Program-made: the position numbers and the translations under genes | Assembly (NCBI GenBank): GCA_051819805.1 | Contig: JBNJHD010000002.1 | Coordinates: forward strand, 63,754-127,753 | Length of the DNA stretch: 64,000 nt | From: Nanobdellota archaeon | GTDB taxonomy: Archaea > Nanobdellota > Nanobdellia > Woesearchaeales > SKGA01 | Direction: 5' to 3' | Part shown: in pieces, positions 2,757-22,086 of the stretch | Numbering within the stretch: the first letter of the stretch is position 1 | Layout: each line of letters starts with the position of its first letter | The notes under the pieces: generated by a model | What the model was told of the DNA's origin: nothing | Databases searched by the model: none | Seen by the model: only the letters and a program-made list of their open reading frames with translations

Positions 2757-3030
2757 TCATATCACTATCGAATAGAATCCCTTGATGAATAAGTACGCAC
2801 CGGCGAGAAAGCTCAAAAACAAGAACGGGTGGAATAAGGCGAGGATGCAATAGCCACCGATGACCATATCGACAGTGCTGAGCAAGTCGCCTTTGTAGAT
2901 GATACCTTTGGTAATGAGAAACAAGGCACCGCCGATGAGAAGACGCTGTGGAGCAAGGTTATCAGGAGTGAGAAAGAGAAGTAGTGCTATAAGAAAGTCA
3001 AGGAAGCCGAAAATACGGATAATAATCATA
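2757..3030 (-). CDS. small membrane protein (2-3 TM)
   Basis: The ORF-track frame 2757..3242 has a hydrophilic N-terminus that overlaps the divergent gene. An internal ATG at 3030 (MIIIRIFGFLDFLIALLLF...) gives a roughly 90-aa hydrophobic protein. Confidence 0.3.
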
Positions 3031-3086
3031 TGCAATACAAATTTCAAGCAAATTATATAAATATTTACTGTATCAAAACAACCATA

Positions 3087-3404
3087 ATGGGTTTTTTCAA
3101 GAGATTGCCTGAAGCAGGGAAGAAATTGACTGAATATAGTGTCCTGACAGGATTTCTTATCGGAGCCCTGCTGGGACTTCTTGTTGGCAAGTACGATGTG
3201 ATTATTCTCCTCACCGCTATTGCTGGAATTATCGTCTCTCATTCGAAACTTTCTGTACAGGGGTTCAATACCATCTATGCGATAACGAACCTCTCGTTCT
3301 TGCTCGGGATGATTATCTTCACGACGGCAGTGAAAGGTCTTGCGCTCATGATCGTGTTCGGGATAGGGCTTCTCGTTGGACGTTTTGTAAAAAAGAGATT
3401 CTAA
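3087..3404 (+). CDS. small membrane protein (3 TM)
   Basis: Frame 3030..3404 with a likely start at ATG 3087 (MGFFKRLPEAGKK...), then three hydrophobic helices. Confidence 0.35.
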   Translation: MGFFKRLPEAGKKLTEYSVLTGFLIGALLGLLVGKYDVIILLTAIAGIIVSHSKLSVQGFNTIYAITNLSFLLGMIIFTTAVKGLALMIVFGIGLLVGRFVKKRF

Positions 3405-3893
3405 GAGAAATAGATTTTTTTGTATAATTGGATAAATACTGATTTGTCTATACCTATTCCTGCATCGCTGAACGCTTGTGCCAGACGAGTTCCAGGGGCG
3501 TCTTTTTCAGGTTCGGGATCATTGAATGAGAGAAGATAACCTAACAGACCATCATACAAGTAACGACCATTGAGAAACAAGACTATCTGCTTATTGCCTG
3601 AACGAATCCGACCAGTCACAAGATCAATAATGATAGTTTCTTTCTTGAGCTTGTTCTTATCACGGACAAACCCTCTGTTGAGAAATTCGCGAGCGATACA
3701 ATCACGGAGACAGGCACGCGAAGAGAGAGATGTGTCAAGATCGAAATATGAATATGCATCATCTGATTCAGGAAGTTCTTTGATAGGTCCTAAGTATTTT
3801 TTTACTTTCTGCCTGACTTTACCATCGATCCATTTGTTATCAACAAGATAACCATATGATTTTCCCTTGACGAGTTTAGCACGGACAAACATT
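3401..3893 (-). CDS. hypothetical basic protein immediately downstream of DP1
   Basis: ORF-track frame 3401..3991; a start at ATG 3893 (MFVRAKLVKGKSYGYLVDNKWIDGK...) avoids overlap with the DP1 stop at 3903. No family recognised. Confidence 0.35.
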
Positions 3894-3902
3894 TTTTTCT
3901 CA

Positions 3903-5459
3903 CTAAGTGGATTGTGAGGATGAGATTTTATCCTTCTCTTTTTTTTTCTCTTCTCTCTTGACACGCTTATATTCAGCAACTGACGAGACATCTTTTGATG
4001 TGCTGAAATTAAGTGATTTTACTTCTCTAGTCTTGAGAGACACAACCATCACACGAGCAGGTTGAGGTTCCAAACCTCGTTTCTCCTGATCCTCAGTAAT
4101 TGCAGTCCAACAAGATGTGTTCATGCAAGTGACATTACGATAATTTTTTAATTGAGCACGATGAATGTGACCTGTAGCGAAAATATCAGGGATGGGATCG
4201 ATAAGAAGAGGATCCTCTTGCAAGTCAGGAATATACATCGTCGAACTGTGAGAAGGAGCAAGATGACGACGCTTGAGAAGCTGTGCCATGATATCGTGAG
4301 CGATTTTCTGACCGCCATTAGCACGGATGGAAGGGATAGCATCAGAATAATAGATAAGAGACCCTCCATGATACATCAACACATCAATTCCTGAAAATTC
4401 TTCAGAAACATCCACTGAGACATATGCAGGATTAGAAACCATGATAACATTAGGGAGTTCCAAAAGATCAGGCGCATATTCCTTAGTGATAGGAAGCTGC
4501 GGTTCAGCAAGACGACCAACATCATGGTTACCTGGACAGATGATAACTTTCATATGACTAGGTATTTTTTTGAAGTATTTAGCGACAAGAGCATATTGTC
4601 CTTTTATATCCTGAACTGAAAGATCATGTTCTTGACCGGGATAGACACCAACCCCTTCAATGAGATCGCCCAAAATGAAAACATATCGAACCTTCTGTGC
4701 AACTCGACGCTGCTCTAAGGAACCTACTTTTCCATTGAGCCACAAGAGGAATCGATGGAATTCTTTTTCAAGGAATTCTTTAGAACCGAAGTGAAAATCA
4801 CCAAGAAAGATAGCATTATGATCATAAGGTGATTTCTTGAGTTCTTTACTCAAGGGAATATCCGGGTGGATGATACTATCTGAGAATATAATATCTCCTC
4901 CTGTCGTTCCGACAATTCCTATGACTTCATCAAGAACTATATCCTTTGCTAAAGGAAGGAGTTCTCCATTATCCTTATTGATAAGAACTTTGATAACACC
5001 TGTGCGGTCCTCCATAGTAAGCATGATATGACCATTTTTTGTCTGGTTCTTGTCAAGGACCATACCTATGATAGCAACTGTCTCGCGTTCACTTTTCTTT
5101 TTCACACGACTGATAGAAGTTAATCCTGAGAGTTCAGAGCGGTTCTTGAGAAGACGCTCGATATTTTTGAATCGTATATTGAAATAAGCAACGAAATCCT
5201 GAATATTACGTTTGTTAGGAGTCTTCTCAAAGGATTTGATAATAGAGACTTTCGTCCGCTTATTGACATCAGAGAAGTATTTAGAAAAAAATGATGATGT
5301 GTCGAGATCGGGAAAATTCGATTTGAAAAAAATAACCAGCTTGTCACGAAGAATCTCACGATCCTCTATAGTGATAATACGCTTTAGTCTATCAACTAGT
5401 TCTTCATCGACGAATTCTCCTTGTTCGACCAGATAGTCAGTAATCAATGAGACATCCAT
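3903..5459 (-). CDS. DNA polymerase II (PolD) small subunit DP1 (calcineurin-like phosphoesterase 3'-5' exonuclease subunit)
   Basis: 518 aa with an N-terminal OB-like region and phosphoesterase motifs FILGDLIEG, CPGNHD and TGHIHRA. It sits directly downstream of cdc6, as in euryarchaeal oriC loci. Confidence 0.85.
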   Translation of the reverse strand: MDVSLITDYLVEQGEFVDEELVDRLKRIITIEDREILRDKLVIFFKSNFPDLDTSSFFSKYFSDVNKRTKVSIIKSFEKTPNKRNIQDFVAYFNIRFKNIERLLKNRSELSGLTSISRVKKKSERETVAIIGMVLDKNQTKNGHIMLTMEDRTGVIKVLINKDNGELLPLAKDIVLDEVIGIVGTTGGDIIFSDSIIHPDIPLSKELKKSPYDHNAIFLGDFHFGSKEFLEKEFHRFLLWLNGKVGSLEQRRVAQKVRYVFILGDLIEGVGVYPGQEHDLSVQDIKGQYALVAKYFKKIPSHMKVIICPGNHDVGRLAEPQLPITKEYAPDLLELPNVIMVSNPAYVSVDVSEEFSGIDVLMYHGGSLIYYSDAIPSIRANGGQKIAHDIMAQLLKRRHLAPSHSSTMYIPDLQEDPLLIDPIPDIFATGHIHRAQLKNYRNVTCMNTSCWTAITEDQEKRGLEPQPARVMVVSLKTREVKSLNFSTSKDVSSVAEYKRVKREEKKKEKDKISSSQST

Positions 5460-5485: not shown

Positions 5486-6703
5486 TCATAACTTGATCTC
5501 AAGTTCTTTAGCGAGTATGTCTTTCACTTTCTCGATAAGATAGGAAGGAATAGCCAGATAAATCTCTCTTGTCCTACCAAAACGACCTTTTGAGATCACT
5601 TTAGCATTAATCAGACCGAGCATATCAAGCTCTGCAATGATATCAGAGAGACGACGTTGTGTGATAGGACGAAGACCTGAAGCAGGACAGATTCCTTTGT
5701 ACACATCATAGACATCACCTGTGAATACTGATTTCGTTCCTGCTTTATCTGATAATGTGAATATAGAAGCGAGTGTTGCTTGGAATTGTTTCGGTTGGGT
5801 CTTGACGATATCAACGATCCGTTCACGTTCTATCTTCTCTTCAGCTTCATCAATATGTTCTATCTTGACAGAATCAGCTTGAGATCTATCAGCGAGTTCA
5901 CCAGCTACACGAAGGAGATCAATAGCTCTCCGTGCATCACCATGTTCACGAGCAGCGTAAGCAGCGCATTTAGGGATGACACCATCGTCAAGAGCACCTT
6001 CTTTGAATGCTAGAGCCGATCGATTGCGTAAGATATCTTGAATCTGCAAAGCGTTGTATGGTGGAAAGAGAATCTCTTCTTCACTCAAGGAGCTTTTCAC
6101 TCGAGGATCAATATGATTTGCGAACATGAGATCGTTGCTTATACCAATGATTGAAAGTTGTGATTTCTTGAGTTCGGCATTAATACGAGTGAGGTTATAG
6201 ATTATTTCATCACCGGTCTTTTTCACAAGGTGATCCACTTCATCAAGGACAAGAAGGAGAAGTTGTTCTTGTTCTTCAAGTGCTTTATAGAATATATTAT
6301 AGACTTCATCAGTAGGAAGGCCTGTAGCAGGAATGGTTTTTCCGAAGAAACGAGCTATTTCAGCAATAAGACGATATTCAGTATCAACTACTCGTTTGAG
6401 TTTGCAGTTGATGTAAAACACTTTGAGAGGAACAGTATTTTGCTTGGCGACTTCAAGCATGTGATTTGTCGTGTAACGGACGGATAAGGTTTTTCCAGTA
6501 CCTGTCTTTCCATAAATGAAAATATTGGATGGTTTCTCAATTTTAAGAGCTGGAGCTAGAATGTTAGCTATCTGATTGATCTGCTCGTCACGATGAGCTA
6601 TATCTTCAGGAACATATGATGCCTGCATTGATTTCTTGTTCTCAAATAAAGAATCTTGAGTGAGATATTTCTCGAAAAAACCATCCAAACTCTTTTTAGC
6701 CAT
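5486..6703 (-). CDS. cdc6: Orc1/Cdc6 replication initiator (AAA+ plus winged helix)
   Basis: Walker A IYGKTGTGKT, Walker B LLLVLDEVDHL and a C-terminal winged-helix region. The gene's 5' end abuts the AT-rich origin region. Confidence 0.9.
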   Translation of the reverse strand: MAKKSLDGFFEKYLTQDSLFENKKSMQASYVPEDIAHRDEQINQIANILAPALKIEKPSNIFIYGKTGTGKTLSVRYTTNHMLEVAKQNTVPLKVFYINCKLKRVVDTEYRLIAEIARFFGKTIPATGLPTDEVYNIFYKALEEQEQLLLLVLDEVDHLVKKTGDEIIYNLTRINAELKKSQLSIIGISNDLMFANHIDPRVKSSLSEEEILFPPYNALQIQDILRNRSALAFKEGALDDGVIPKCAAYAAREHGDARRAIDLLRVAGELADRSQADSVKIEHIDEAEEKIERERIVDIVKTQPKQFQATLASIFTLSDKAGTKSVFTGDVYDVYKGICPASGLRPITQRRLSDIIAELDMLGLINAKVISKGRFGRTREIYLAIPSYLIEKVKDILAKELEIKL

Positions 6704-6757
6704 CTTCTAAACCACCCATAAAATTAATTAATATAAAGAAATGAACTTTATTAATAA

Positions 6758-6774
6758 GTGTTTCCATAAGAAGC
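6758..6774 (+). repeat. ORB-like element copy 1 (GTGTTTCCATAAGAAGC)
   Basis: The core TTCCATAAGAA recurs as a perfect reverse complement at 6869..6879. Confidence 0.4.
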
Positions 6775-6865
6775 ATATGAAACAAATAATAAGTGCAGAT
6801 GGAAATAATGTTTGTAATGTGAATGAACGAATGTAGTGTATTCAAGAACATAGATGTGACACCTT

Positions 6866-6882
6866 GATTTCTTATGGAATTT
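6866..6882 (-). repeat. ORB-like element copy 2 (inverted; TTCTTATGGAA on the plus strand)
   Basis: An 11-bp perfect inverted copy of 6762..6772. It resembles the archaeal mini-ORB dyad TTCCA-N-GGAAA. Confidence 0.4.
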
Positions 6883-7608
6883 ACTTTTGGAAGAAAAAAG
6901 ATCAGTTCTTCACATTAATAATAAAAATCCTGAAAAAAATATCATAAGGAAGAATATAAGATATGAATTCTATCATTATAAAAAAATATGTGAAAATAAG
7001 AATCAAGAGCATAAGAAATAAAATGATAATTAAAATATAATTGATAAAAAATAATTTTTCTGAATAATGCAATCATATCAAAATAAAAAATAAGTTAAAT
7101 CTCATATAATATAAAAAAACATATAATATATTTATTATTATTTTATTATATATTTTATATTTATTTTAAAATTAATTAATATATAATATATTTAATTTCT
7201 ATATAGAAATAAAATAATATATTATTATTTATTTAGTTTTAGTATAAATATTATATTTATTATTCGTTTATTTTATTCATAATGTAGTTTTATTATTTTC
7301 ATATTATTATTGTTTGTTTATGGTTTAAAACAAAAAATATTTTTTTTATTCAGAATGTTATTCATGTATATTTTTTATTATGATTATTGTTGAAGTCAAG
7401 AATAATTGTTGTTAAAAAAAACATAATCTCAATATGAATTCATTTTCATATTTCATTAATTATATTAAGCCAATTATATGGTTTCATGTTCGATGATCAG
7501 TAATACTATAGTTAAGCCATCTGAATTTATCATACTCTAGAACTATATTTATTTGAATTAGAATATCCTATATTTATTTTTGTTTTATACATGTTGATAA
7601 AAAAATAG

Positions 7609-7622
7609 TTTCCACTCGAAAT
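7609..7622 (+). repeat. ORB-like element copy 3 (GTTTCCACTCGAAA)
   Basis: It shares GTTTCCA..GAA with copy 1 and lies on the far side of the AT-rich DUE, inverted relative to copy 2. Confidence 0.35.
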
Positions 7623-7825
7623 AAAGGTGTGAGTTGCATAGTATCCAAAGAGTATATTTGAGTAGATATTCAATTCTCATATAAAACAAGCAATAAATGT
7701 ATTTTGTTTTCACTATACAATGGTTATATAATAGAAACATTTATATTAGTGTCTTTATTTTCTCTTTATTAGTGGTAAAACAAATTACTTTTCATTCCTA
7801 AGAATAAGAGTATGGGGTTGACACA

Positions 7826-8647
7826 ATGCTAATGCAAAAAGATTTTATAGATCGATTGAAAGTATTCGGACTCAACAGTTATGAAGCAAAAATCTGGATA
7901 GCACTTCTTTCACGAGGTGTGGCAAGCGCAGGAGAACTTTCTGATATTTCTAACGTTCCACGATCACGAAGCTATGATGTTCTTGAATCCCTTGAAAAAA
8001 AAGGATTTATCGTAATGAAAATAGGAAAACCGATTAAATATATAGCGGTATCTCCACAAGAAGTTATTGAGAGAGTAAAGCAACGAGTGGATGAAGAGGC
8101 AAAATCACAATCAGAAAGTCTGGAAGAACTCAAAAGTTCACCTATTCTAGGCGAACTTTCAACTCTACATGATAATGGTGTCGATCTCGTTGAACCATCA
8201 GATCTCACTGCATCATTCAAAGGAAGAGATAAAGTATATAGTCAGATGCAACTCATGCTCAAGGAAGCTGAAGAGACATTCGATCTCGTGACAACAGACC
8301 AAGGTCTTGAACGAAAAGCAGATTATCTCGCACGAGCATTCAAGAAAGCGAATGATAGAGGAGTTCGTGTTCGTATCGCTATTCCAGGTGATGATATTAA
8401 TAAGGATATTCTTGAATTGCTCTCTCAATATGCTGATATAAGACAAATGAAAAATATCAAGGCACGTTTCGCAATCGCAGATGGTCAAGAGATATCATTC
8501 CTTCTTTTCCATGACGAAGATGTGCATCCGACTTATGATGTGGGGGTGTGGGTGAATACGCCATTTTTCTCACAAGCGGTCGAGTCACTATTCAATATAG
8601 CATGGGAGGATCTTCCACAACTTACCGTTTCAACAGTCAGTAGGTAA
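7826..8647 (+). CDS. TrmB-family transcriptional regulator
   Basis: N-terminal LGLNSYEAKIWIALLSRGVASAGELSDISNVPRSRSYDVLESLEKKGFI...IGKPIKYIAVSPQEVIERV is the TrmB wHTH signature. Confidence 0.7.
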   Translation: MLMQKDFIDRLKVFGLNSYEAKIWIALLSRGVASAGELSDISNVPRSRSYDVLESLEKKGFIVMKIGKPIKYIAVSPQEVIERVKQRVDEEAKSQSESLEELKSSPILGELSTLHDNGVDLVEPSDLTASFKGRDKVYSQMQLMLKEAEETFDLVTTDQGLERKADYLARAFKKANDRGVRVRIAIPGDDINKDILELLSQYADIRQMKNIKARFAIADGQEISFLLFHDEDVHPTYDVGVWVNTPFFSQAVESLFNIAWEDLPQLTVSTVSR

Positions 8648-8738
8648 TGCTGATTACTTCTTTTCAATTTTATTATCTTCATATACTCTTATTCTACCGT
8701 GACGTTTATAAGAGACGAGCGCTTTTCATCTCACTGTA

Positions 8739-9440
8739 ATGATAGAAGAGCAGAAATATCTCATTATAGGAACAAGCCATATCGCAAAGAGTTCACTTGA
8801 GGAGATCAAGCAAGAATTTCTTAGTTTCAGACCTGATACGATAGCAGTAGAACTCGATACGAAGAGAGCGCAAGCGCTTCTTTCACCACAACAACAGCGA
8901 CCGAGCGCCAGACAACTTATCAAAGCAGTAGGTTTGAAAGGATTTCTCTTCACAGTCATAGCACGAAGCGTGCAGAAGCGCCTCGGTAAGATGGTGGGAG
9001 TCGAGCCGGGAAGCGAGATGAAGTACGCGATGGAATTGGCGAAAAACAATCATCTAGATATAAAATTGATCGATAGATCGCTTGAAGTGACAGTAAGACG
9101 GCTGTTCAAGAAACTGACATGGAGGGAAAAGTTCCGATTTATAGGACAACTCGTGGCTGCACCATTTACGCCGAAAAAAAAACGGATGAAACTACCACTC
9201 GATAAAGTACCTCCAGAGCAAATGATCGAGCGACTCATGAAAATTCTCAAGAAACAATTTCCTACGATGCATGAAGTGCTTGTTGAGGAACGGAATCATT
9301 ACATGGCTCGACGAGCTGCTCGGTATCTCAAACTCAATCCAGAAAAGAAGTTGATGATCGTTGTAGGAGCAGGACATAAAGTCGAGCTCGGAGAACTCAT
9401 TCCCTTATATTATTCTCGAATGGAAGTATTGAGAAAATAA
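8739..9440 (+). CDS. TraB/PrgY/GumN-family protein
   Basis: Motifs IIGTSHIAKSSLEEIK, TIAVELD and VVGAGHKVEL near the C-terminus are typical of the TraB family. Confidence 0.65.
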   Translation: MIEEQKYLIIGTSHIAKSSLEEIKQEFLSFRPDTIAVELDTKRAQALLSPQQQRPSARQLIKAVGLKGFLFTVIARSVQKRLGKMVGVEPGSEMKYAMELAKNNHLDIKLIDRSLEVTVRRLFKKLTWREKFRFIGQLVAAPFTPKKKRMKLPLDKVPPEQMIERLMKILKKQFPTMHEVLVEERNHYMARRAARYLKLNPEKKLMIVVGAGHKVELGELIPLYYSRMEVLRK

Positions 9441-9755
9441 GTTTTTATTTATATAATGTGATGTGTAGAATATATAGATTATTTTTACAGTAGAAATCAA
9501 CGGGTAGGGGATTTAAAAATAAGCAGAATTTTATAATTCTTATCTTTCGATTCAATGCATTGTTTGACTTTTTCCACAAGAAATAATGGTTGTTGTTTCT
9601 TATAAATGTTGTGTTTTTAAATATTTATAAATGAAAAAAGAAGGATTTATAAAGGAGTGGTGTTTTGTGTAGTTTATAAAGAGGTAACAGGCAGTAATTA
9701 CACTCTACAGGAACATATCAACGTGCAATAAGTAAAATATAGGGGGGTTATCGCG

Positions 9756-10319
9756 ATGAGCGAAACACTAGAAGAGCTTAAGAAAGGACTTGATATTGGA
9801 ATCGTCAACATTGTCGTCTCAACAAGTCTCGGGCATGATATTCCGCTTGAGAAAATGGCGGCTACGCTTTCTAACACAGAATACAATCCTGAACAATTCC
9901 CAGGACTTGTGATCAGGATCAGAGATCCACGAACGTCAGCTTTGATTTTCAGTTCTGGAAATGTCGTGTGTACGGGAGCAAAGAGTCTTGAGGATGTGGA
10001 AAAATCACTTGAACAGATTAAGCAAACACTCAAGAAAATCAATGTGAACATCACGATCAAGCCTGAAATCAACATTCAGAACATGGTAGCGTCAGGAAAT
10101 ATCAATATGGATCTCAATCTCAATACGCTAGCTATGAAACTGGATAATACTGAGTATGAACCTGAGCAATTTCCAGGTCTAGTCTACAAACTCGACAAGG
10201 CACAAGCGACATTCTTGCTTTTTAGCAATGGAAAAATCGTTTGTACAGGAACGAAATCGGAGAGAGATGTCTATAAGGCAGTCCACATGCTTATTGATGT
10301 ACTCAATAAAGTCAAGTGA
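9756..10319 (+). CDS. tbp: TATA-box binding protein
   Basis: Two direct TBP repeats (NTEYNPEQFPGLVIRI... and NTEYEPEQFPGLVYKL...), 187 aa. Confidence 0.9.
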   Translation: MSETLEELKKGLDIGIVNIVVSTSLGHDIPLEKMAATLSNTEYNPEQFPGLVIRIRDPRTSALIFSSGNVVCTGAKSLEDVEKSLEQIKQTLKKINVNITIKPEINIQNMVASGNINMDLNLNTLAMKLDNTEYEPEQFPGLVYKLDKAQATFLLFSNGKIVCTGTKSERDVYKAVHMLIDVLNKVK

Positions 10320-10489: not shown

Positions 10490-12520
10490 ATGGATATCGG
10501 AGAACAAGTACAGATACTCCAAGACTTTTTTGAACAGTATTATTATGATAATCTGGTCAAAGCAGTCCAGAAAGGAGATTCGTACATTACTGTTGACTTC
10601 AACGATTTAGCATTACATAATGTGGATCTAGCCCAAAAAGTTCTTGATGCACCAGAAGAAATGTTCAAGACGGCGCAACTCGCTATTGAGAAGCTTAATC
10701 TTCAAGGCGATGTCACTGAGTTCAACGTCCGATTCCACAACCTGCCATTCTCTCAACATATCATCATCAGAAACATCCGGAGCAAACACATAGGAAAGTT
10801 CCTCCAATTAGAAGCAGTGGTCAGACAGAAAGGAGATGTCAGACCGCATGTGACAAATGCGAAATTCGAATGTCCGAGTTGCGGTAATATCATTAATGTC
10901 GTGCAGGTAGAACAGAAGTTCAAGGAACCAGGACAATGCGGATGTGGACGAAAAGGAGGTTTCAGACTTCTTGACAAGAAACTCGTTGATGTACAGAAAT
11001 TGGTTATTGAAGAACCTTCAGAGAATCTTGAAGGAGGCGAACAACCTAAACGCTTCAACTTGCTTCTCCGACATGACTTGGTAAGTCCTATCAGTGAGAA
11101 GAAAACAAATCCTGGAAGCAAGATAATCATAACGGGAGTAGTCAACGAAATCCCTATTTCTTTACGTTCAGGTGGAAAATCAGTGGAATTCGATCTCATG
11201 ATCGAAGGAAATTATATACATCCAGTCCAAGAAGAATTCTCTTCAATACAAGTCACAGAGGAAGAAGAAAGAGAATTCAGGGAATTCGCAAAAACAGGAC
11301 AAGCATTCAAGAAACTTGTCAAGAGTTTCGCACCAACAATCTATGGTTACGAACGAGTCAAAGAAGCGCTCGTGCTCCAAATGATGGCAGGAATCCAAAA
11401 GAAACGAAGCGATGGTGTGAGCACAAGAGGAGATATTCACGTTCTCCTCATCGGTGATCCGGGCGCTGCAAAGAGTCAGCTTCTCAAACGAGTATCTGTG
11501 ATTGCACCAAAGGCACGGTTCGTTTCAGGTAAGGGAGCGAGTGGAGCGGGATTGACAGCGTCAGTAGTCAAAGATGAATTTCTTGGTGGATGGGCGCTAG
11601 AAGCAGGAGCGCTCGTGCTTGCGAACCAAGGAATCGCGTGCATAGATGAGTTAGACAAGATGACTGACGAGGACCGGAGCGCGATGCACGAGGCACTCGA
11701 ACAACAGACAATCACAGTCAGTAAAGCGAACATCCAAGCGACACTGCGAAGCGAAACGACAGTACTTGCAGCAGCTAACCCTAAGTTCGGACGATTCGAT
11801 CCGTATGAAATGCTCGGAAAACAGATTAACTTGCCACCAGCACTCATCAGCAGGTTCGATCTTATCTTTCCAGTAAGGGATCTTCCAGATAGGGAAAAGG
11901 ATGGAAATATTGCTGAATTCATTTTGAGACTCCATCAAGATACTTCAAGAGCAGATAATGTAGAACTCAAAACTGATTTCATAAAGAAATATATCGCTTA
12001 TGCAAAGCAACATATCAAACCGCATCTGGAAGATGAAGCACTTGAGGAAATAAGAAATTATTACGTCAAGATAAGAAATATGGGTAGTAAAGAAGGAGAA
12101 GGCGGTATAAAGTCAGTACCGATTACAGCAAGGCAACTCGAGGCACTCGTAAGGATAACTGAAGCGAGCGCGAAGACAAGACTCTCCAAGAAGGCAACTA
12201 AAGATGATGCAAAAAAAGCTATTGAACTATTACACTTCACACTCAGCCAGATAGGGATGGATCCTGATACAGGAAAACTTGATATAGATAGAATTACAAC
12301 AGGAGTTACTGCATCACAACGGAACCATATCAGTATTGTCAAGGAATCTATCAGCACACTTGAGAAAGAACTCGGTAAAGTGATTCCTGAAGAAGAGATC
12401 ATCAAGGAATGCGAGCAGAAAGGAATGGAAGAGACTAAAGTTGAGGAAATGCTTGAAAAACTTCACCGATCAGGAGATATCTATAAGCCGAAGCACGGAT
12501 TCATATCAAAGATGAGTTAA
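10490..12520 (+). CDS. mcm: MCM replicative helicase (no intein)
   Basis: Zinc finger CPSCGN...CGCG, Walker A GDPGAAKSQLL, Walker B CIDELDKM, arginine finger region and a C-terminal wH; 676 aa. Confidence 0.9.
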   Translation: MDIGEQVQILQDFFEQYYYDNLVKAVQKGDSYITVDFNDLALHNVDLAQKVLDAPEEMFKTAQLAIEKLNLQGDVTEFNVRFHNLPFSQHIIIRNIRSKHIGKFLQLEAVVRQKGDVRPHVTNAKFECPSCGNIINVVQVEQKFKEPGQCGCGRKGGFRLLDKKLVDVQKLVIEEPSENLEGGEQPKRFNLLLRHDLVSPISEKKTNPGSKIIITGVVNEIPISLRSGGKSVEFDLMIEGNYIHPVQEEFSSIQVTEEEEREFREFAKTGQAFKKLVKSFAPTIYGYERVKEALVLQMMAGIQKKRSDGVSTRGDIHVLLIGDPGAAKSQLLKRVSVIAPKARFVSGKGASGAGLTASVVKDEFLGGWALEAGALVLANQGIACIDELDKMTDEDRSAMHEALEQQTITVSKANIQATLRSETTVLAAANPKFGRFDPYEMLGKQINLPPALISRFDLIFPVRDLPDREKDGNIAEFILRLHQDTSRADNVELKTDFIKKYIAYAKQHIKPHLEDEALEEIRNYYVKIRNMGSKEGEGGIKSVPITARQLEALVRITEASAKTRLSKKATKDDAKKAIELLHFTLSQIGMDPDTGKLDIDRITTGVTASQRNHISIVKESISTLEKELGKVIPEEEIIKECEQKGMEETKVEEMLEKLHRSGDIYKPKHGFISKMS

Positions 12521-17040: not shown

Positions 17041-20000
17041 GTGAGGGTAGTGGCAGAATTCGGGCAATATTTCAAAGTCATAACGATATTTCTAGTTCTG
17101 ATTTCAATGATGATGATAGCAAGTGGAGTTGTGAGTGCAATTGCTTCAGACCGTTTCTCAATGGATGAAATGACTGGTGTGAATGCATGGTCTAAGGATG
17201 AACCTGAGTACTCTGATTTTCCTGTTTGTTCTGAAGACTCATCTTCTGAACAATTTTTTATTATAAACACAGCGAGTGAAAAAGAACTACATCCTATCAC
17301 TTACGATTTATGTCATGATGCAGATGATTTAGCTATGAATAGACTTTGTGATGAGGATCCTGAAGAGCTTTATTCGAGATTTGAAACGCCTTACACCGGA
17401 TTTGTGACTCAAAAATCCATTTCTACAAGTTCTTCAAGCCGTTGTTGGGGGAGTTCTCAATTAAGAATGACTGATAGAAGAAGTATGGGTATCTTATTAG
17501 GTGGTTACCTTTATGTTACTGATGATGGTGCTAAACTGTATGTCAATCTTAGAAATGGTAGACGAAAAGATAATGTCAGAGGATATGCTCATCTGACTAT
17601 TCACCCGTTTAACACATCTACAAGAACACCATTATTGACTGATCATGTGGATTTTGTTCCTGTTCAAAATTATTATCATTCGCAAAAAGGATGGACAAAT
17701 TCTGATTGGGGATATGGTGATGTTGCCCGTTCATCCAGCCAGTCTTTAGATAAAGGTATTTATTATATTACACTTGTTGCTGTTCAAAGAGGAAGTGAAC
17801 ATGATAGAAGCTCAAATACCAATGAGGAAAAACGAGTTTCGGTAAATTTAGCAGACGAATTATTATCCACTTCAGATGGAAATCATCTCGATAATAATAA
17901 TTATCTTGAGACATCAAAGTATGAAATAAAATACCGGCTTTTATCTGAGGAAGAGATTATAACGGAATATTCCGAATTAACAGATACTGTCAAAGACTAT
18001 TGTTATGCAGCAACCTCAAATCCAAATCCTTGGAACGAATCCTTGGTTGGTGTAGTTCCTACAGAAAGAACGTGTTGTGGTGATGACCAAGAAGATCTAG
18101 GTTATGTCTATGGAGATTTGGTCTGCACACAAGATGGTTGGGAACAACAATCTCCTCAAGAGTATTGCGCACAGCAAGTCACAGGGGAAAAAACCTCAAA
18201 CCAAGCGGTTTTTAACCAATATTATATAGGTTATATGGATAGTTTGACTTCACAAGATATCTATACTGAAAGTGATTTCTCAGATGGTTGTTGCGGCGAT
18301 GATGCAGAGTCAGGTTGTGTGAAAACATACACTTCATGTGCTGAAGTTCCAGAAGGAGACTGTGAGAACTATGGTTGTCAAAGAACAGGAGAAGCCACCG
18401 GAAGCGTCCAATGCTCAACATTTTATGATAAGGAAGGGTATTGTCCGGGTGACTGCACTAGAATTACTTTTTGTCATGAACCTGATAATCCTAGAAAGCC
18501 CTGTTCCAATGAGGTCGGTGAATGCCCTACTGATTGTTTTCTAAAAACTACGGGTTGTTCTGGATCATTCTCTTGTTCTGATTATTACTATTCCGATTAT
18601 TGCGATTGGGATTATGAGAATCCTGCTTGTAAAGGAGAGATAGATGATGTCGATTGCTCCAGTTTAACAACCAAAAATGAATGTAGTGATGAAACCGCTT
18701 GCACTTTTTATGGGTTTTGGACATCTGATTATGCATATGTAGCTGGTGATAACAGGTATTTCTGTAATAAAGATTATTCTGAAGATGATGGTGTTTGGTA
18801 TTGGGATGATGAAGGCAGTTCTGACTGGAAATGGTGGGATGCTGAAAATCACAAATACATAATCCACGAATATAATGGTGTGCAGTTCATCAGTAATGGT
18901 CAACAATGGTTCTACAGTTCAGCGAATGGAGAACTAGATGGTTCACATGGTCTTCCAGCAGATAACTTCACAGAATTTGATTATGATACTTTTGATTATC
19001 CTGATGGAGAAGAAGGTTTTAGCTGTGTTAACGCTCTTGAAACACTCGGTTTCAACACGTTTTTCGATAACGATCTTGACAGTCCGTTTGAGAAAGTTAC
19101 AGTAGTAAATAGTTCCGAATACTGCGGGAATAGTGATGGAGTCTGCTGTAAAGAAGATCGTGATGGAGAAATAGGAATGCTCAACGCGGAAAATTTTGAT
19201 TTTGACCAGTTGAAATCTGAATGTGGTTCTTGTTCTGTAAAAGGAACTGATCTTGCACAGTACCTCAATGGAGAAGGTAAGAGAGAACAATTCTGTCAAT
19301 CTTATCGATTCTTGACATCATGTGATGTTGATCAAGATCAACCAGTATTAGAACAATCATTGAGAGTCCGAAAAGACGCGTGCATGTTCAACTTGAAAGG
19401 ATGTCTTCAGAAAAGTCCTTATCTTGATCAGCAATGTGCTGATATCACTTATCAGGATGAATTCATTGGAGTGGGTTGTTCAGTAGATGCTCCTGTCTGT
19501 TCTGTTGGTGAGTATATTATCTCTAAGGATGTCGCTGATGATAATGAAGAATCACCAGTAGCTTGCTGTCTTGTTAACGTATCAGATATGTCAAGTCCCA
19601 CTCCTGAAAATGTCTGTAAACCACTTGATAAGATTAATAAGGATCTCTGTCAAAATGAATATTATGGAGATTGGTTTTCAGGTCCTATAGGACTACGCGA
19701 CTATACATGCAGTAGTTTCAACTTCAAGACAAATGATGATGGTGCTTGCTGTATAGGAGGTAAATGGACTCCAATACACAATACGCAAAAACTTGCAACT
19801 CTTGCTTCAATGGCAAGTCCTGAACAATTCATCTCCTACAATCATAGTGGTGATTCAAGATTTGCAGAGTGTTGCAACTCCTATTCAACTTGTTACAATG
19901 CAGAGCAATCATCACTTGCGGATTCATCTGATTATGCGTACTATGGAAATGGAGGGATCCTTCACACTATCAAGAATTTCGACACACACAATGAGAACGA

Positions 20001-22086
20001 TGAGGTTGTTGATTATGTGTTCCGTTCTTTCAAAGCTAAGAAAGGAAACCCGCTTACGATAACTGTTCCTAATAATGACTTAAATGAAATAAGGGATTTC
20101 AGCTCGTTTGACACTCTTCATTTTGACATAGCATATAATCATAATGTGATTGAAGATCTTGTCATCGAAGCTTCAGGAGATAGTGAATGTACAATTGAAA
20201 ATATCAATCAATATTTTACTAACGGTAATAACTCTATGCGATGGCATCATGTGAGAATACCTGACTTTAAAGATAAATGTAACGCCACTAGCAGCTGGGA
20301 TTATGTGAAAAAATTTAAAATTACCACTAATAATGTTGAAACTGCAGTCTCGATAGTGCTTGATAATTTTTATCTCGAAGACACCACTGCATCTAACACT
20401 GAGAATTATTACTGTGCCGGAGACTTCGGACGATGGGTAAAAAACCTTGACGGTGATTCCGATAAAGGATTTGAAGAGCAAGCGGATAGAACTACTTATG
20501 GTGCGTATTGGTATGCCTGTGATGCGCAAGCGAGCTATTCATGGACTGGAAGGCGATGCTGCGGTGATGATACGACAAAACCTTATTACTCAACCGAGTC
20601 TTCTGACACTCAATCAAGTGGAGAATACTATTCCGATGAAGATGCGGGTTGCTTTGCAGGAGTCCCTGTAGCTAACGATATGCCTGTAGGATACGCTCTT
20701 GGTGAAGGTAAGAAGTCAGAATATAATTCTCTTTTGTTCTATAAAGGTGATTTCGTTGCTTGTACGAAACCCATGAAAAATTACTTCTCGAACTACAATC
20801 TATCATTCAATGGAACATCCTCTGAAGGTGAGTTAGTCACGAAATACAACGAATCCTTCTCGATGCCGGGAACACACATCTGCGGTCCGGACGGCATGTG
20901 GGTGGATATCGACGAGATGCCGAAAGCACGATTCATCGCATCGAAGATGCATGACCTGACATTCACCGATGATAATAAGCAAAACCAGTACGATACATAC
21001 GATATATGGTGCTCGGACTTCTCACAAGGAGTGCCTTACAACGAGACACAACTTGCAGGTGTAGGGCTTGATGAAGGATCATCGTTCATCAACGATTTCT
21101 GCACTCTTCGCTATCTCAATGATGATGGTAAAGAACGAGCACTTATCGGCTTGAGCCTGAAAGGAACGTCCATCAGCAATTTCCTCATCAACATCTCAGG
21201 ACATCTGTCGATGATGACAGATCTTGAAACTGACGAATGGGGAGAATTTTCAGAGCGTTGTCCAGAAACGGCTGAAGAAGTGAGTTCAGATCGCTTCTTT
21301 GAACCTTGCGATAATGAAGTTGATGGTATTGTCATGGCATACAATCCGAAACTGAAGATACTCTTCATTGCAGAACTTGGTACTGATAGTAATGCAGACT
21401 CATATGAGAATTTCAATGGTTTCTTCAAACCGGAAGATGGTAATATTCTCAAATACACGAAACACATCTTCAAGAGTTTCCTCGGACTCTTTGATGGATG
21501 GTTCTCAGAAGACACGAGTGAAGAATACATCACGAACAATGTCTTGATGCCATCATTTACTAATTCGACCGTTGAATGGACTCGACTTTATGTTGGAAGA
21601 CGAGATAATAAAATGATCCAAGGTCTTGTTGAGGATCAGATCATTCTTGAAGATGGTCAAGGATTCAAAGATATCTATACAATCGAATTCAGTAATTTCG
21701 CAACTCCGATGAATGAGTTTGCAGAACAATATACTGATTATGATAGTGCTCTGGAAGCAGGTTATCTTCTTGGTGAAAACAAGCAAGTCATCTCCATTGT
21801 AAACCCTGAAGCCCGTTATAAGACCTTCCAACCACCATTCGATTGGCGACGACTCACGACAGCGTTCAGGATAGATGCTTCAAAAGGAGGAGAACCGATC
21901 ACTGACGCTACTGGTGATGGCGTTGTCAATATCAACGAGCTTTGCGATAAAGATGCTGATGGCAATCCTGTCTTCAAGTTCAACCAGAGCAGTTGTCACT
22001 TCTGGAAGCCGGAAAATTATGGTGAAGGTTCAGGTAATGTGACTTGTAATAAGGGAGAGCTTGTATTTTCAAGCTGTAGTGAATAA
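17041..22086 (+). CDS. giant (1681 aa) Cys-rich secreted/surface protein with an N-terminal signal anchor
   Basis: GTG start 25-40 nt downstream of TATTTTTATAATAAC. Hydrophobic N-terminus ITIFLVLISMMMIASGVV, then a long hydrophilic ectodomain with many Cys and recurrent vicinal CC motifs (TCCGDD, GCCGDD, RCCGDD). Confidence 0.6.
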   Translation: MRVVAEFGQYFKVITIFLVLISMMMIASGVVSAIASDRFSMDEMTGVNAWSKDEPEYSDFPVCSEDSSSEQFFIINTASEKELHPITYDLCHDADDLAMNRLCDEDPEELYSRFETPYTGFVTQKSISTSSSSRCWGSSQLRMTDRRSMGILLGGYLYVTDDGAKLYVNLRNGRRKDNVRGYAHLTIHPFNTSTRTPLLTDHVDFVPVQNYYHSQKGWTNSDWGYGDVARSSSQSLDKGIYYITLVAVQRGSEHDRSSNTNEEKRVSVNLADELLSTSDGNHLDNNNYLETSKYEIKYRLLSEEEIITEYSELTDTVKDYCYAATSNPNPWNESLVGVVPTERTCCGDDQEDLGYVYGDLVCTQDGWEQQSPQEYCAQQVTGEKTSNQAVFNQYYIGYMDSLTSQDIYTESDFSDGCCGDDAESGCVKTYTSCAEVPEGDCENYGCQRTGEATGSVQCSTFYDKEGYCPGDCTRITFCHEPDNPRKPCSNEVGECPTDCFLKTTGCSGSFSCSDYYYSDYCDWDYENPACKGEIDDVDCSSLTTKNECSDETACTFYGFWTSDYAYVAGDNRYFCNKDYSEDDGVWYWDDEGSSDWKWWDAENHKYIIHEYNGVQFISNGQQWFYSSANGELDGSHGLPADNFTEFDYDTFDYPDGEEGFSCVNALETLGFNTFFDNDLDSPFEKVTVVNSSEYCGNSDGVCCKEDRDGEIGMLNAENFDFDQLKSECGSCSVKGTDLAQYLNGEGKREQFCQSYRFLTSCDVDQDQPVLEQSLRVRKDACMFNLKGCLQKSPYLDQQCADITYQDEFIGVGCSVDAPVCSVGEYIISKDVADDNEESPVACCLVNVSDMSSPTPENVCKPLDKINKDLCQNEYYGDWFSGPIGLRDYTCSSFNFKTNDDGACCIGGKWTPIHNTQKLATLASMASPEQFISYNHSGDSRFAECCNSYSTCYNAEQSSLADSSDYAYYGNGGILHTIKNFDTHNENDEVVDYVFRSFKAKKGNPLTITVPNNDLNEIRDFSSFDTLHFDIAYNHNVIEDLVIEASGDSECTIENINQYFTNGNNSMRWHHVRIPDFKDKCNATSSWDYVKKFKITTNNVETAVSIVLDNFYLEDTTASNTENYYCAGDFGRWVKNLDGDSDKGFEEQADRTTYGAYWYACDAQASYSWTGRRCCGDDTTKPYYSTESSDTQSSGEYYSDEDAGCFAGVPVANDMPVGYALGEGKKSEYNSLLFYKGDFVACTKPMKNYFSNYNLSFNGTSSEGELVTKYNESFSMPGTHICGPDGMWVDIDEMPKARFIASKMHDLTFTDDNKQNQYDTYDIWCSDFSQGVPYNETQLAGVGLDEGSSFINDFCTLRYLNDDGKERALIGLSLKGTSISNFLINISGHLSMMTDLETDEWGEFSERCPETAEEVSSDRFFEPCDNEVDGIVMAYNPKLKILFIAELGTDSNADSYENFNGFFKPEDGNILKYTKHIFKSFLGLFDGWFSEDTSEEYITNNVLMPSFTNSTVEWTRLYVGRRDNKMIQGLVEDQIILEDGQGFKDIYTIEFSNFATPMNEFAEQYTDYDSALEAGYLLGENKQVISIVNPEARYKTFQPPFDWRRLTTAFRIDASKGGEPITDATGDGVVNINELCDKDADGNPVFKFNQSSCHFWKPENYGEGSGNVTCNKGELVFSSCSE

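What the first reader, a model, noticed from the sequence alone, without database searches (positions are those of the whole stretch)
6704..7825. Probable oriC: 1.1-kb AT-rich region with an inverted pair of ORB-like boxes flanking a nearly pure A/T unwinding element
It lies immediately upstream of orc1/cdc6. An 11-bp perfect inverted repeat (TTCCATAAGAA at 6762..6772 and its reverse complement at 6869..6879) and a third related box (GTTTCCACTCGAAA at 7609) bracket about 350 bp of essentially 100% A+T with a poly-A/T tract structure (7080-7420). The boxes are related to, but diverge from, the euryarchaeal mini-ORB TTCCAGTGGAAAC.
Basis: partly seen in the sequence, partly recalled or inferred. 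Interest (0 to 1): 0.55.

Follow-up and report, generated by a model that had tools for sequence, protein, structure and literature searches.

The report
Replication origin of a DPANN archaeon
This 1.1-kb AT-rich spacer is very probably the chromosome's replication origin, of the standard archaeal kind, and comparing it with about 90 related genomes also revealed a conserved palindrome at its centre that I found described nowhere.

Summary
The 1122-bp spacer (19% G+C) lies between orc1/cdc6 (5486-6703, minus) and a TrmBL2-like gene (7826-8647). It holds the most AT-rich DNA of the 64-kb window.

The consensus, TTCCAnAnGAAAtaAAGGtgT, is close to the published pan-archaeal ORB.

It is two full ORBs, 6856-6879 (minus) and 7610-7633 (plus), inverted, with G-strings pointing outward. 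The box at 6762 has no G-string and sits at the cdc6 promoter. The same ORB(-)/DUE/ORB(+) layout occurs in 39 of 51 complete related loci.

New here: a single-copy palindrome, TTTCTATATAGAAA (7196-7209), lies midway between the ORBs. It is exact in 31 of 51 loci and has at most one mismatch in 40. It recurs in Altiarchaeota-like origins. Its position recalls the Sulfolobus ucm, but its sequence differs.

Two more conserved ORB-like boxes lie upstream of TBP-MCM.

Origin firing itself is untested, and GC skew is uninformative. Verdict: a genuine Orc1-1-type oriC, a new member of a known kind, with one undescribed conserved element.

The parts
5486..6703 (-). orc1/cdc6 initiator gene (405 aa), Orc1-1 type
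   Evidence: Pfam Cdc6_lid, Cdc6_C and AAA_22. NCBIfam NF001625 528.6 bits, cutoff 501. PDB 2QBY_A E 7e-108 and 2V1U_A E 8e-97; in that alignment the ISM 'TGL', helix 'TQRR' and wing 'GRFGRTRE' are conserved.
6760..6772 (+). Box A: GTTTCCATAAGAA, an ORB dyad without a G-string, abutting the conserved ACACTTATTAATA (probable cdc6 BRE/TATA). Probable Orc1 autoregulatory site.
Evidence: It lies in a block conserved in the window and L001-L003 while the surrounding spacer diverges. Most other loci carry an ORB at about -30 between the TATA box and the cdc6 ATG.
6794..6804 (-). Degenerate dyad TTCCATCTGCA, inverted relative to box A with a 21-nt spacer
   Evidence: TTCCAnnnGCA is conserved in the window, L001 and L002. 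Other loci have the same 21-nt spacing in a dyad pair that flanks the cdc6 TATA box.
6856..6879 (-). ORB-B, proximal full ORB: TTCCATAAGAAATCAAGGTGTCAC. Dyad faces the DUE, G-string faces cdc6.
   Evidence: PWM score 29.9 against a shuffle maximum of 22.5. Conserved in L001 and L002. A proximal ORB(+) in cdc6 orientation occurs in most loci.
6882..6892 (-). Degenerate dyad TTCCAAAAGTA abutting ORB-B on the DUE side
   Evidence: One mismatch to TTCCANNNGAA. There are 5 TTCCA/TGGAA words in the spacer against 1.4 expected.
7080..7420 (.). AT-rich duplex unwinding element (90.6% A+T; core 7106-7205 is 98% A+T), with degenerate low-complexity tandem repeats
   Evidence: The lowest-G+C 100-, 200- and 350-bp stretches of the whole window. 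Tandem repeats. Nearly all related loci have an AT trough at the same place whatever the genome G+C. The sequence itself is not conserved.
7196..7209 (.). Central palindrome TTTCTATATAGAAA (family TTTCWATATWGAAA), single copy, about midway between ORB-B and ORB-C
   Evidence: The only match with at most 1 mismatch in the 64 kb. Exact in 31, at most 1 mismatch in 40 and at most 2 in 45 of 51 complete related loci, always between the ORBs. Fractional position median 0.52; the two arm lengths correlate, rho 0.61. Elsewhere in the loci it occurs only at chance level. Also present in Altiarchaeota-like origins.
7610..7633 (+). ORB-C, distal full ORB: TTCCACTCGAAATAAAGGTGTGAG (preceded by GT at 7608-7609). 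Dyad faces the DUE, G-string faces the TrmBL2-like gene.
   Evidence: PWM score 30.9, the best in the window. Conserved in the window and L001-L003. Differs at 4 of 22 positions from the published M. luminyensis ORB2 GTTCCAGTGGAAATAAAGGGGT.
7826..8647 (+). TrmBL2-like winged-helix protein gene, divergent from cdc6 across the origin. A conserved neighbour; any role at the origin is unproven.
   Evidence: Pfam TrmB and Regulator_TrmB. PDB TrmBL2 5BPD E 5.5e-19 over residues 12-262. A divergent neighbour in 29 loci.
9481..9510 (+). Weak distal ORB-like box in the TraB-TBP spacer (-278 from the TBP ATG)
   Evidence: PWM 15.0. The orthologous box scores 10-33 in all 7 loci with the same gene order.
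9568..9597 (+). Distal ORB-like box TTCCACAAGAAATAATGGTTG (-191 from the TBP ATG), followed by TATA-like elements upstream of TBP-MCM
   Evidence: PWM 26.0, above the shuffle maximum of 22.5. A box at this offset scores above 14 in the five closest loci and aligns in all seven. 5 of the 7 PWM hits found outside the cdc6 upstream region in all loci are in this spacer.

Best explanation
Window 6704-7825 is the Orc1-1-type chromosomal replication origin (oriC) of a Woesearchaeota/Nanobdellota (DPANN) archaeon.

Shown by sequence and comparison:
- Two full origin recognition boxes lie in inverted orientation, ORB-B at 6856-6879 (minus) and ORB-C at 7610-7633 (plus).
- Their dyads face inward and their G-strings face outward.
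- They flank about 730 bp whose core (7080-7420) is the most AT-rich DNA in the window.
- A single conserved palindrome (7196-7209) sits about midway between them.
- A third, G-string-less dyad (box A, 6760-6772) abuts the cdc6 promoter.

Inferred by homology with Sulfolobus oriC1:
- One Orc1 monomer binds each ORB with fixed polarity. The winged helix contacts the TTCCA...GAAA dyad and the AAA+ initiator-specific motif contacts the AAGGTG side.
- ATP-bound Orc1 at the two inverted ORBs recruits MCM hexamers onto the intervening AT-rich DNA, which melts, and forks leave in both directions.
- Binding at box A feeds back on cdc6 transcription.

Inferred from position only:
- The central palindrome is the site of a dimeric accessory factor, or of Orc1 in a second binding mode, that marks the symmetry centre of the origin. 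This would be analogous to the ucm/UBP element of Sulfolobus.
For: Initiator:
- The gene is an Orc1-1 orthologue with conserved DNA-contact motifs.

Context:
- PolD-DP1 follows cdc6 in 77 of 80 loci. TBP-MCM lies on the other side in the 7 closest loci.

ORBs:
- The top G/C-containing words enriched upstream of cdc6 in 76 loci assemble into TTCCAnAnGAAAtaAAGGtgT.
- This matches the published consensus, with the same one-base-shorter spacing as the Methanomassiliicoccales ORBs.
- PWM hits of at least 18 number 168 within 1.5 kb upstream of cdc6 and only 7 elsewhere in the loci.
- The window has only three strong hits. Two of them flank the DUE.

Architecture:
- ORB(-)/DUE/ORB(+) occurs in 39 of 51 loci, and in lineages with only 44-54% Cdc6 identity.
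- It matches the pattern that the literature treats as defining.

DUE:
- It is the lowest-G+C DNA in the window.
- The AT trough is kept even in genomes with 50-62% G+C.

Footprinting:
- The boxes and the palindrome stay conserved while the rest of the spacer diverges.

Gene orientation:
- It diverges from the site. To the right there are 44.8 kb on the plus strand and 7.4 kb on the minus strand. To the left there are 5.1 kb on the minus strand and 0.76 kb on the plus strand.
Against: - There is no direct evidence of initiation. No marker-frequency data, initiation-point mapping or binding data exist for this organism.
- GC skew is uninformative. Third-position GC skew of the coding strand is the same for plus- and minus-strand genes (-0.10 and -0.11). 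The rise in bulk skew to the right of the site therefore reflects gene orientation, not replication.
- Only 6.7 kb lies to the left of the site.
- Much of the co-oriented block to the right (17-55 kb) consists of giant uncharacterised ORFs that could be one operon or island.
- Across loci the orientation bias is modest, 67% on one side and 60% on the other.
- The ORB-to-ORB distance here (about 730 bp) is much longer than in Sulfolobus (a 130-bp ORB3-DUE-ORB2 region) and than the median of related loci (313 bp).
- Some archaea survive without origins, so a conserved origin need not be the only way this genome initiates replication.
Confidence: 0.85

Rival explanations
1. The spacer is only a divergent regulatory region. 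Orc1 acts here as a transcription factor on ORB-like operators of cdc6 and the neighbouring genes, the AT-rich DNA is promoter spacer, and replication starts elsewhere or by recombination.
For: Box A and, in most loci, an ORB at about -30 overlap the cdc6 promoter. ORB-like boxes also sit in front of TATA elements upstream of TBP, 2 kb from the DUE. Orc1 paralogues are known transcription regulators (Orc1-2, PMC9738581). No replication-specific skew is detectable.
Against: Regulation alone does not explain three things. The first is a 100-bp core of 98% A+T that is kept even in genomes of 50-62% G+C. The second is a pair of full ORBs with strictly outward-facing G-strings. The third is a symmetry-centre palindrome whose two arms co-vary in length. 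The initiator is the Orc1-1 orthologue, not an Orc1-2-like regulator.
Confidence: 0.07
2. It is a real but secondary or dormant origin, and the main origin lies outside the window next to another initiator gene.
For: Many archaea have several origins, and dormant cdc6-adjacent origins are documented in haloarchaea (PMC4595724). Only 64 kb of the genome was visible.
Against: The initiator is of the universally conserved Orc1-1/oriC1 type with the classic cdc6-PolD linkage. Sequence constraint on the ORBs and the palindrome across more than 50 genomes argues for continued use. No second ORB cluster or Orc1 gene was seen in the window. Genomes of about 1 Mb usually need only one origin (own knowledge).
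Confidence: 0.06
3. The AT-rich block is a remnant of foreign or mobile DNA, or an assembly artefact, and the boxes are chance matches.
For: The 11-bp inverted repeat alone arises in 7.4% of shuffles. AT-rich islands are often foreign. Many related contigs break here.
Against: The position and the motifs are conserved in about 90 independent assemblies from several lineages. No repeats of this DNA occur elsewhere in the window, and there are no RNA-family or tRNA hits. PWM scores are far above the shuffles.
Confidence: 0.01

Closest known systems
Sulfolobus (Saccharolobus) oriC1: ORB3-DUE-ORB2 bound by Orc1-1, with the ucm/UBP element (PMC12141716)
   Same: The initiator is the orthologue (2QBY_A, E 7e-108). 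Inverted ORBs flank an AT-rich DUE next to the orc1-1 gene. A short conserved motif sits about midway between the two ORBs.
   Different: The ORB-DUE-ORB region is about 130 bp in Sulfolobus. Here the ORBs are about 730 bp apart, and the median in related loci is 313 bp. The central motif is a 14-bp palindrome, TTTCWATATWGAAA, not the ucm TTATACAAAC. The central triplet of the ORB dyad is relaxed (TTCCA-nAn-GAAA instead of TTCCAGTGGAAA). No UBP homologue was looked for.
Predicted Methanomassiliicoccales ORBs and the pan-archaeal ORB consensus of Pelve et al. (PMC4153887, Table 2)
   Same: The box sequence and spacing are nearly the same. M. luminyensis ORB2 is GTTCCAGTGGAAATAAAGGGGT and window ORB-C is TTTCCACTCGAAATAAAGGTGT. 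Both are one base shorter than the consensus CTTCCAGTGGAAACGAAAGGGGT. Both occur as inverted pairs next to orc1/cdc6.
   Different: In the Woesearchaeal boxes the G-string is usually GGTG or GGGG, and the dyad centre is A/T-rich and variable. No central palindrome is reported for Methanomassiliicoccales.
Pyrococcus/Thermococcus oriC (own knowledge)
   Same: The origin is upstream of cdc6, which is followed by the PolD small-subunit gene. It has full ORBs plus dyad-only mini-ORBs.
   Different: The organism, the flanking TrmBL2-like gene and the central palindrome differ. I did not compare sequences directly, so this is a recalled resemblance.
Haloarcula hispanica oriC2 with a nearby ORB-rich regulatory cluster (PMC5333045, PMC3936714)
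   Same: Extra ORB copies lie outside the ORB-DUE-ORB core and could modulate the origin or titrate the initiator.
   Different: Here the extra boxes are two direct repeats 2 kb away, in the promoter region of TBP-MCM. Their effect is unknown.

Membership tests
Orc1-1/oriC1-type archaeal replication origin (ORB(-)/DUE/ORB(+)) | Lies in an intergenic region next to an Orc1-1-type orc1/cdc6 gene | tested here: met
   a 405-aa Orc1/Cdc6; NF001625 at 528.6 bits against a cutoff of 501; best PDB match Sso Orc1-1.
Orc1-1/oriC1-type archaeal replication origin (ORB(-)/DUE/ORB(+)) | At least two ORBs made of a dyad element plus an asymmetric G-rich element that match the archaeal consensus | tested here: met
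   ORB-B and ORB-C score 29.9 and 30.9 against a shuffle maximum of 22.5. They align with CTTCCAGTGGAAACGAAAGGGGT.
Orc1-1/oriC1-type archaeal replication origin (ORB(-)/DUE/ORB(+)) | ORBs in inverted orientation flanking an AT-rich unwinding element | tested here: met
   minus-strand ORB at 6856-6879, plus-strand ORB at 7610-7633, and the lowest-G+C DNA of the window between them. The same layout occurs in 39 of 51 related loci.
Orc1-1/oriC1-type archaeal replication origin (ORB(-)/DUE/ORB(+)) | Strand-composition (GC-skew or Z-curve) switch at the site | tested here: inconclusive
   bulk skew rises to the right of the site, but GC3 skew does not differ between plus- and minus-strand genes. 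The left flank is only 6.7 kb. Gene orientation does diverge at the site.
Orc1-1/oriC1-type archaeal replication origin (ORB(-)/DUE/ORB(+)) | Specific binding of the cognate Orc1 to the ORBs | not testable with these tools
   Only indirect support: the DNA-contact motifs of Orc1-1 are conserved.
Orc1-1/oriC1-type archaeal replication origin (ORB(-)/DUE/ORB(+)) | Bidirectional initiation in vivo (marker frequency, initiation-point mapping, autonomous replication) | not testable with these tools
   The organism is uncultured. Only 10 kb or less around homologous genes could be fetched, so no read-depth or whole-genome profile was possible.
Sulfolobales ucm/UBP origin accessory element | Short conserved motif inside the DUE, about midway between the inverted ORBs | tested here: met
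   single copy, fractional position median 0.52 (IQR 0.44-0.59).
Sulfolobales ucm/UBP origin accessory element | Motif sequence TTATACAAAC | tested here: not met
   One search gives the ucm sequence. The element here is the palindrome TTTCWATATWGAAA. It is therefore analogous in position but not a member of that family.
Sulfolobales ucm/UBP origin accessory element | Bound by a UBP-family nucleoid protein that contacts MCM | not tested
   No UBP sequence was at hand. The only nearby candidate, the TrmBL2-like protein, has a different probable operator.

The most novel reading that the evidence does not exclude
DPANN and Altiarchaeota-like Orc1-1 origins may share a third obligatory cis element besides the ORBs and the AT-rich DNA: a lineage-specific palindrome at the symmetry centre of the unwinding element.

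Two versions were seen. TTTCWATATWGAAA occurs in Woesearchaeota, in Altiarchaeota-like loci and in unnamed lineages. TATAACAWTGTTATA occurs in an Aenigmarchaeota locus and in a locus whose cluster mate is labelled Micrarchaeota.

The palindrome would be bound by a dimeric factor that is not yet identified. Candidates are the origin-adjacent TrmBL2-like protein, Orc1 itself in a second mode, or a nucleoid protein. The factor would position or separate the two MCM hexamers, which would make it a functional analogue of the Sulfolobus ucm/UBP system that arose with a different sequence and symmetry.
Probability: 0.3. Interest if true: 0.6.

Novelty: new member of a known kind. Interest (0 to 1): 0.42.

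Why it matters
Replication origins of DPANN archaea have not, as far as the searchable literature shows, been defined. No paper in the library holds both 'DPANN' and 'origin recognition box', and the newest origin-prediction preprint does not mention these lineages in its main text.

This locus and its relatives give:
- a clade-specific ORB matrix;
- a clear ORB(-)/DUE/ORB(+) architecture;
- an anchor point for replication-rate estimates from metagenomic read depth in uncultured episymbionts.

The conserved central palindrome makes a current question testable in a second, distant group of archaea. That question is whether archaeal origins generally need an accessory, sequence-specific factor between the two helicase-loading sites, as UBP/ucm was recently shown to be needed in Sulfolobus.

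One practical point: about a third of related contigs break inside this element, so origins are systematically lost from DPANN assemblies.

Tried and rejected
- **RNA genes.** Rfam gave nothing at gathering threshold over the whole window, nor at E<=1 over 6500-10000. There are no tRNAs or tmRNAs. The spacer is therefore not a known RNA gene.
- **Tandem repeats.** Only degenerate low-complexity AT repeats lie in the DUE core. There are no iterons.
- **The 11-bp inverted repeat on its own.** It is only marginal, arising in 7.4% of shuffles. I rejected it as stand-alone evidence.
- **GC skew as a replication signal.** Rejected, because GC3 skew is identical for genes on the two strands.
- **Whole-genome skew or read depth.** Not possible. 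Only 10 kb or less around genes can be fetched, although relatives lie on contigs of up to 1.07 Mb.
- **A second origin at the other AT-poor spot (43-44 kb).** There is no ORB there, and it lies inside an ORF.
- **TrmBL2-like protein as the palindrome binder.**
  - The exact palindrome co-occurs with the neighbouring gene: 23 of 27 loci with it against 8 of 24 without, Fisher p 2e-4, not corrected for phylogeny.
  - Its own upstream regions share a different motif (TYACT-N5-AATRR plus BRE/TATA), not the palindrome.
  - Loci with the gene placed elsewhere show no palindrome upstream of it.
  - It is left as an open guess.
- **The palindrome as a hairpin or cruciform.** Unlikely. The two W positions do not co-vary to keep perfect symmetry, and the asymmetric form is the commonest.
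- **The palindrome as a BRE/TATA promoter.** The GAAA lies on the wrong side of the TATA-like core compared with the promoters of this clade (cGAAAg-TTTATATA).
- **The class-2 palindrome TATAACAWTGTTATA.** It is not found in Woesearchaeal origins.
- **Literature search for the 14-mers.** It returned only unrelated primer hits.
Full report
**What is there**

The finding covers the 1122-bp spacer 6704-7825 (G+C 0.192; the window averages 0.398).

To its left, on the minus strand, lie:
- a 405-aa Orc1/Cdc6 gene (5486-6703);
- the small subunit of DNA polymerase D (3903-5459).

To its right, on the plus strand, lie:
- a TrmB-family gene (7826-8647);
- a TraB-family gene (8739-9440);
- TBP (9756-10319);
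- MCM (10490-12520).

The initiator passes the NCBIfam equivalog for ORC1-type replication proteins (528.6 bits, cutoff 501). Its best solved relative is Sulfolobus solfataricus Orc1-1 (2QBY_A, E 7e-108), followed by Aeropyrum ORC1 (2V1U). The ISM 'TGL', recognition-helix 'TQRR' and wing 'GRFGRTRE' segments are conserved.

The identical protein is on record as 'ORC1-type DNA replication protein [Nanobdellota archaeon]' on a 129-kb contig. The 80 closest loci in the genome collection are Woesearchaeota/Nanoarchaeota MAGs.

**Checking the observation**

- TTCCATAAGAA sits at 6762-6772 and its exact reverse complement at 6869-6879. These are the only exact copies in the window.
- The third box, GTTTCCACTCGAAA, begins at 7608, one base earlier than stated.
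- The stretch 7080-7420 is 90.6% A+T, not about 100%. Only 7106-7205 reaches 98%.
- This region holds the lowest-G+C 100-, 200- and 350-bp stretches of the whole 64 kb.
- On its own the 11-bp inverted repeat is not impressive. 7.4% of dinucleotide shuffles of the spacer contain an equally good one.

**Comparative evidence**

I took the DNA upstream of cdc6 in the 76 related loci that had at least about 150 bp upstream (Cdc6 identity 62-95%).

- An AT trough (G+C 0-25% per 200 bp) lies 200-800 bp upstream of cdc6 in nearly all of them, including genomes with 50-62% G+C.
- The G/C-containing words most enriched there are TTCCATAAGAA, TTCCATAGGAA, TTCCATATGAA, TTCCAAAAGAA, CCTTnnTTTC and AAGGGGTG.
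- TTCCANNNGAA is 17 times denser in the 1.5 kb upstream of cdc6 than elsewhere in the loci.
- Together these words form one 21-nt element, TTCCAnAnGAAAtaAAGGtgT.
- This is the archaeal origin recognition box, a dyad plus a G-string. The published consensus is CTTCCAGTGGAAACGAAAGGGGT. The Methanomassiliicoccales version, GTTCCAGTGGAAATAAAGGGGT, has the same spacing as ours.

A weight matrix built only from the other genomes finds three strong sites in the window:
- 7606-7635 (+), score 30.9;
- 6854-6883 (-), score 29.9;
- 9568-9597 (+), score 26.0.

The best score in 200 block-shuffled windows was 22.5. Across all loci, 168 matrix hits lie within 1.5 kb upstream of cdc6 and only 7 lie elsewhere.

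**Anatomy of the origin**

- The two full ORBs are inverted. ORB-B (6856-6879, minus) reads TTCCATAAGAAATCAAGGTGTCAC. ORB-C (7610-7633, plus) reads TTCCACTCGAAATAAAGGTGTGAG.
- Their dyads face the AT-rich core and their G-strings point outward.
It pairs at a 21-nt spacing with a degenerate dyad (6794-6804) and abuts a conserved ACACTTATTAATA, which I read as the cdc6 BRE/TATA.
- In an alignment with the three closest relatives, the islands of conservation in an otherwise diverged spacer are box A with its surroundings, ORB-C, the promoter block upstream of the TrmB-family gene, and ORB-B in three of the four sequences.
- Most other loci carry a third ORB at about -30, between the TATA box and the cdc6 start codon. 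This points to autoregulation.
- The layout ORB(-), AT minimum, ORB(+) is found in 39 of 51 loci with complete upstream sequence.
- The same layout recurs upstream of Cdc6 genes only 44-54% identical to this one.
- It is the pattern the literature uses to define Cdc6-type origins.

**A further element: the central palindrome**

I searched the inter-ORB DNA of 39 loci for over-represented words, and a near-palindrome emerged: TTTCWATATWGAAA.

- In the window it is TTTCTATATAGAAA at 7196-7209. This is the only match with at most one mismatch in the 64 kb.
- Among the 51 complete loci it is exact in 31, has at most one mismatch in 40 and at most two in 45. It is always located between the two ORBs.
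- Outside origins its 10-nt core occurs at chance frequency: 10 hits in 680 kb, with about 10 expected.
- It sits at a median fractional position of 0.52 between the ORBs. The distances to the two ORBs co-vary (rho 0.61, p 1e-4), so origins of very different size stay symmetric about it.
- The two W positions do not co-vary to keep perfect symmetry. This favours a protein site over a hairpin.
- The same motif occurs three times in an Altiarchaeota MAG origin (L094) and its relative (L090). Variants (TTTCTATATGGAAA, TTACAATATAGTAA) occur in other unnamed lineages.
- An Aenigmarchaeota locus, and a locus whose cluster mate is labelled Micrarchaeota, carry a different palindrome at the same place: TATAACAWTGTTATA.
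- The position resembles the Sulfolobus ucm, an essential motif midway between ORB2 and ORB3 that is bound by the nucleoid protein UBP. The ucm sequence is TTATACAAAC, so this is an analogy, not membership.
- I found no paper that mentions these 14-mers in an origin context.

**How it most likely works**

By homology with Sulfolobus oriC1:
- each ORB binds one Orc1 monomer with fixed polarity;
- the two inverted, ATP-bound monomers recruit MCM to the AT-rich DNA between them;
- that DNA melts and forks leave in both directions.

These steps are inferred, not shown. Box A would let Orc1 repress or tune its own promoter. The palindrome most likely binds a dimeric factor at the symmetry centre. 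I cannot name that factor.

The gene across the origin encodes a full-length TrmBL2-like protein (5BPD, E 5.5e-19). The exact palindrome is commoner where this gene is the neighbour (23 of 27 loci against 8 of 24, p 2e-4, not corrected for phylogeny). But the conserved motif in that gene's own upstream region is different. Orc1 is another candidate, because the palindrome shares the outer TTTC/GAAA of the ORB dyad at one base wider spacing.

**What does not fit or could not be tested**

- GC skew does not help. The bulk skew turns positive to the right of the site, but third-position skew is the same for genes on either strand. The signal is therefore one of gene orientation.
- Gene orientation does diverge from the site, strongly in the window and modestly across loci. 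However, much of the right-hand block is a run of giant ORFs without family matches.
- The ORB-to-ORB distance (about 730 bp) is unusually long.
- No experiment or read-depth profile was available.

**Comparison and novelty**

This is a regular Orc1-1/oriC1-type origin. All sequence-level membership criteria are met, and the functional ones are untestable here. It is a new member of a known kind, from a group whose origins do not appear to have been described.

The variant features are:
- a relaxed dyad centre;
- a long DUE;
- two conserved ORB-like boxes upstream of TBP-MCM;
- the central palindrome.

The palindrome is the part that could interest specialists.

**Verdict**

Confidence that this is a functional chromosomal origin is about 0.85. 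Interest is moderate (0.42), and the interest comes mainly from the palindrome rather than from the origin call itself.

Noticed in passing
window 7196-7209; L001-L080 upstream of cdc6; L083, L086, L090, L094: A single-copy palindrome, TTTCWATATWGAAA, lies at the centre of the unwinding element. It is conserved in most Woesearchaeal origins and present, in up to 3 copies, in Altiarchaeota-like origins.
   Followed up: yes
L081:629-645; L095:about 2320-2336 (the same sequence is in L096): A different palindrome, TATAACAWTGTTATA, occupies the same central position in the DUE. It occurs in an Aenigmarchaeota MAG and in a lineage whose cluster mate is labelled Micrarchaeota. This suggests lineage-specific versions of one architectural element.
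   Followed up: partly
window 9481-9510 and 9568-9597: Two direct ORB-like boxes lie about 87 bp apart in the TraB-TBP spacer, each followed by TTTATAAA-type elements, at -278 and -191 from the TBP start. The upstream box is conserved in all 7 loci with this gene order, and the downstream box aligns in all 7 with matrix scores above 14 in the five closest. They may couple Orc1 to TBP-MCM expression or act as accessory origin sites.
   Followed up: partly
L005, L007-L009, L013, L014, L016, L017, L019, L022, L023, L026, L029, L032, L036-L039, L044, L046, L048, L054, L059-L061, L068, L077, L082, L088, L089, L092/93; N-runs in L003 (origin spacer) and L010 (TraB-TBP spacer): 27 of 80 related contigs, and 4 of 11 more distant loci, end within about 650 bp upstream of cdc6, inside the origin. 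L003 has a scaffold gap inside the origin spacer itself. The extreme AT content or low complexity appears to break assemblies systematically at DPANN origins.
   Followed up: partly
window 7826-8647 and 7700-7800; 29 related loci: A full-length TrmBL2-like protein (PDB 5BPD, E 5.5e-19) is encoded divergently from cdc6 across the origin in 29 loci. Its upstream regions share TYACT-N5-AATRR followed by cGAAAg-TTTATATA. This is probably its own operator and promoter.
   Followed up: partly
window 17107-22086, 23101-26631, 26901-30896, 30928-35652, 48364-52998: A co-oriented run of giant ORFs (1176-1659 aa). Four have no Pfam match. The fifth (1544 aa) has NlpC/P60 and SLT lytic-transglycosylase domains. 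This could be a host-interaction or cell-surface gene island of the episymbiont.
   Followed up: no
record titles of L002, L004, L006, L008-L010 and many others: Many third-party-annotated MAGs titled 'uncultured Methanosarcinales archaeon' carry Cdc6 proteins 62-90% identical to this Nanobdellota protein, with the same gene order. The organism label in those records looks wrong.
   Followed up: no
window 2757-3242 and 3401-3991 (minus strand): Two small ORFs (161 and 196 aa) downstream of PolD-DP1 have no Pfam or NCBIfam match. They are conserved in the same position in the 9-10 closest loci.
   Followed up: no
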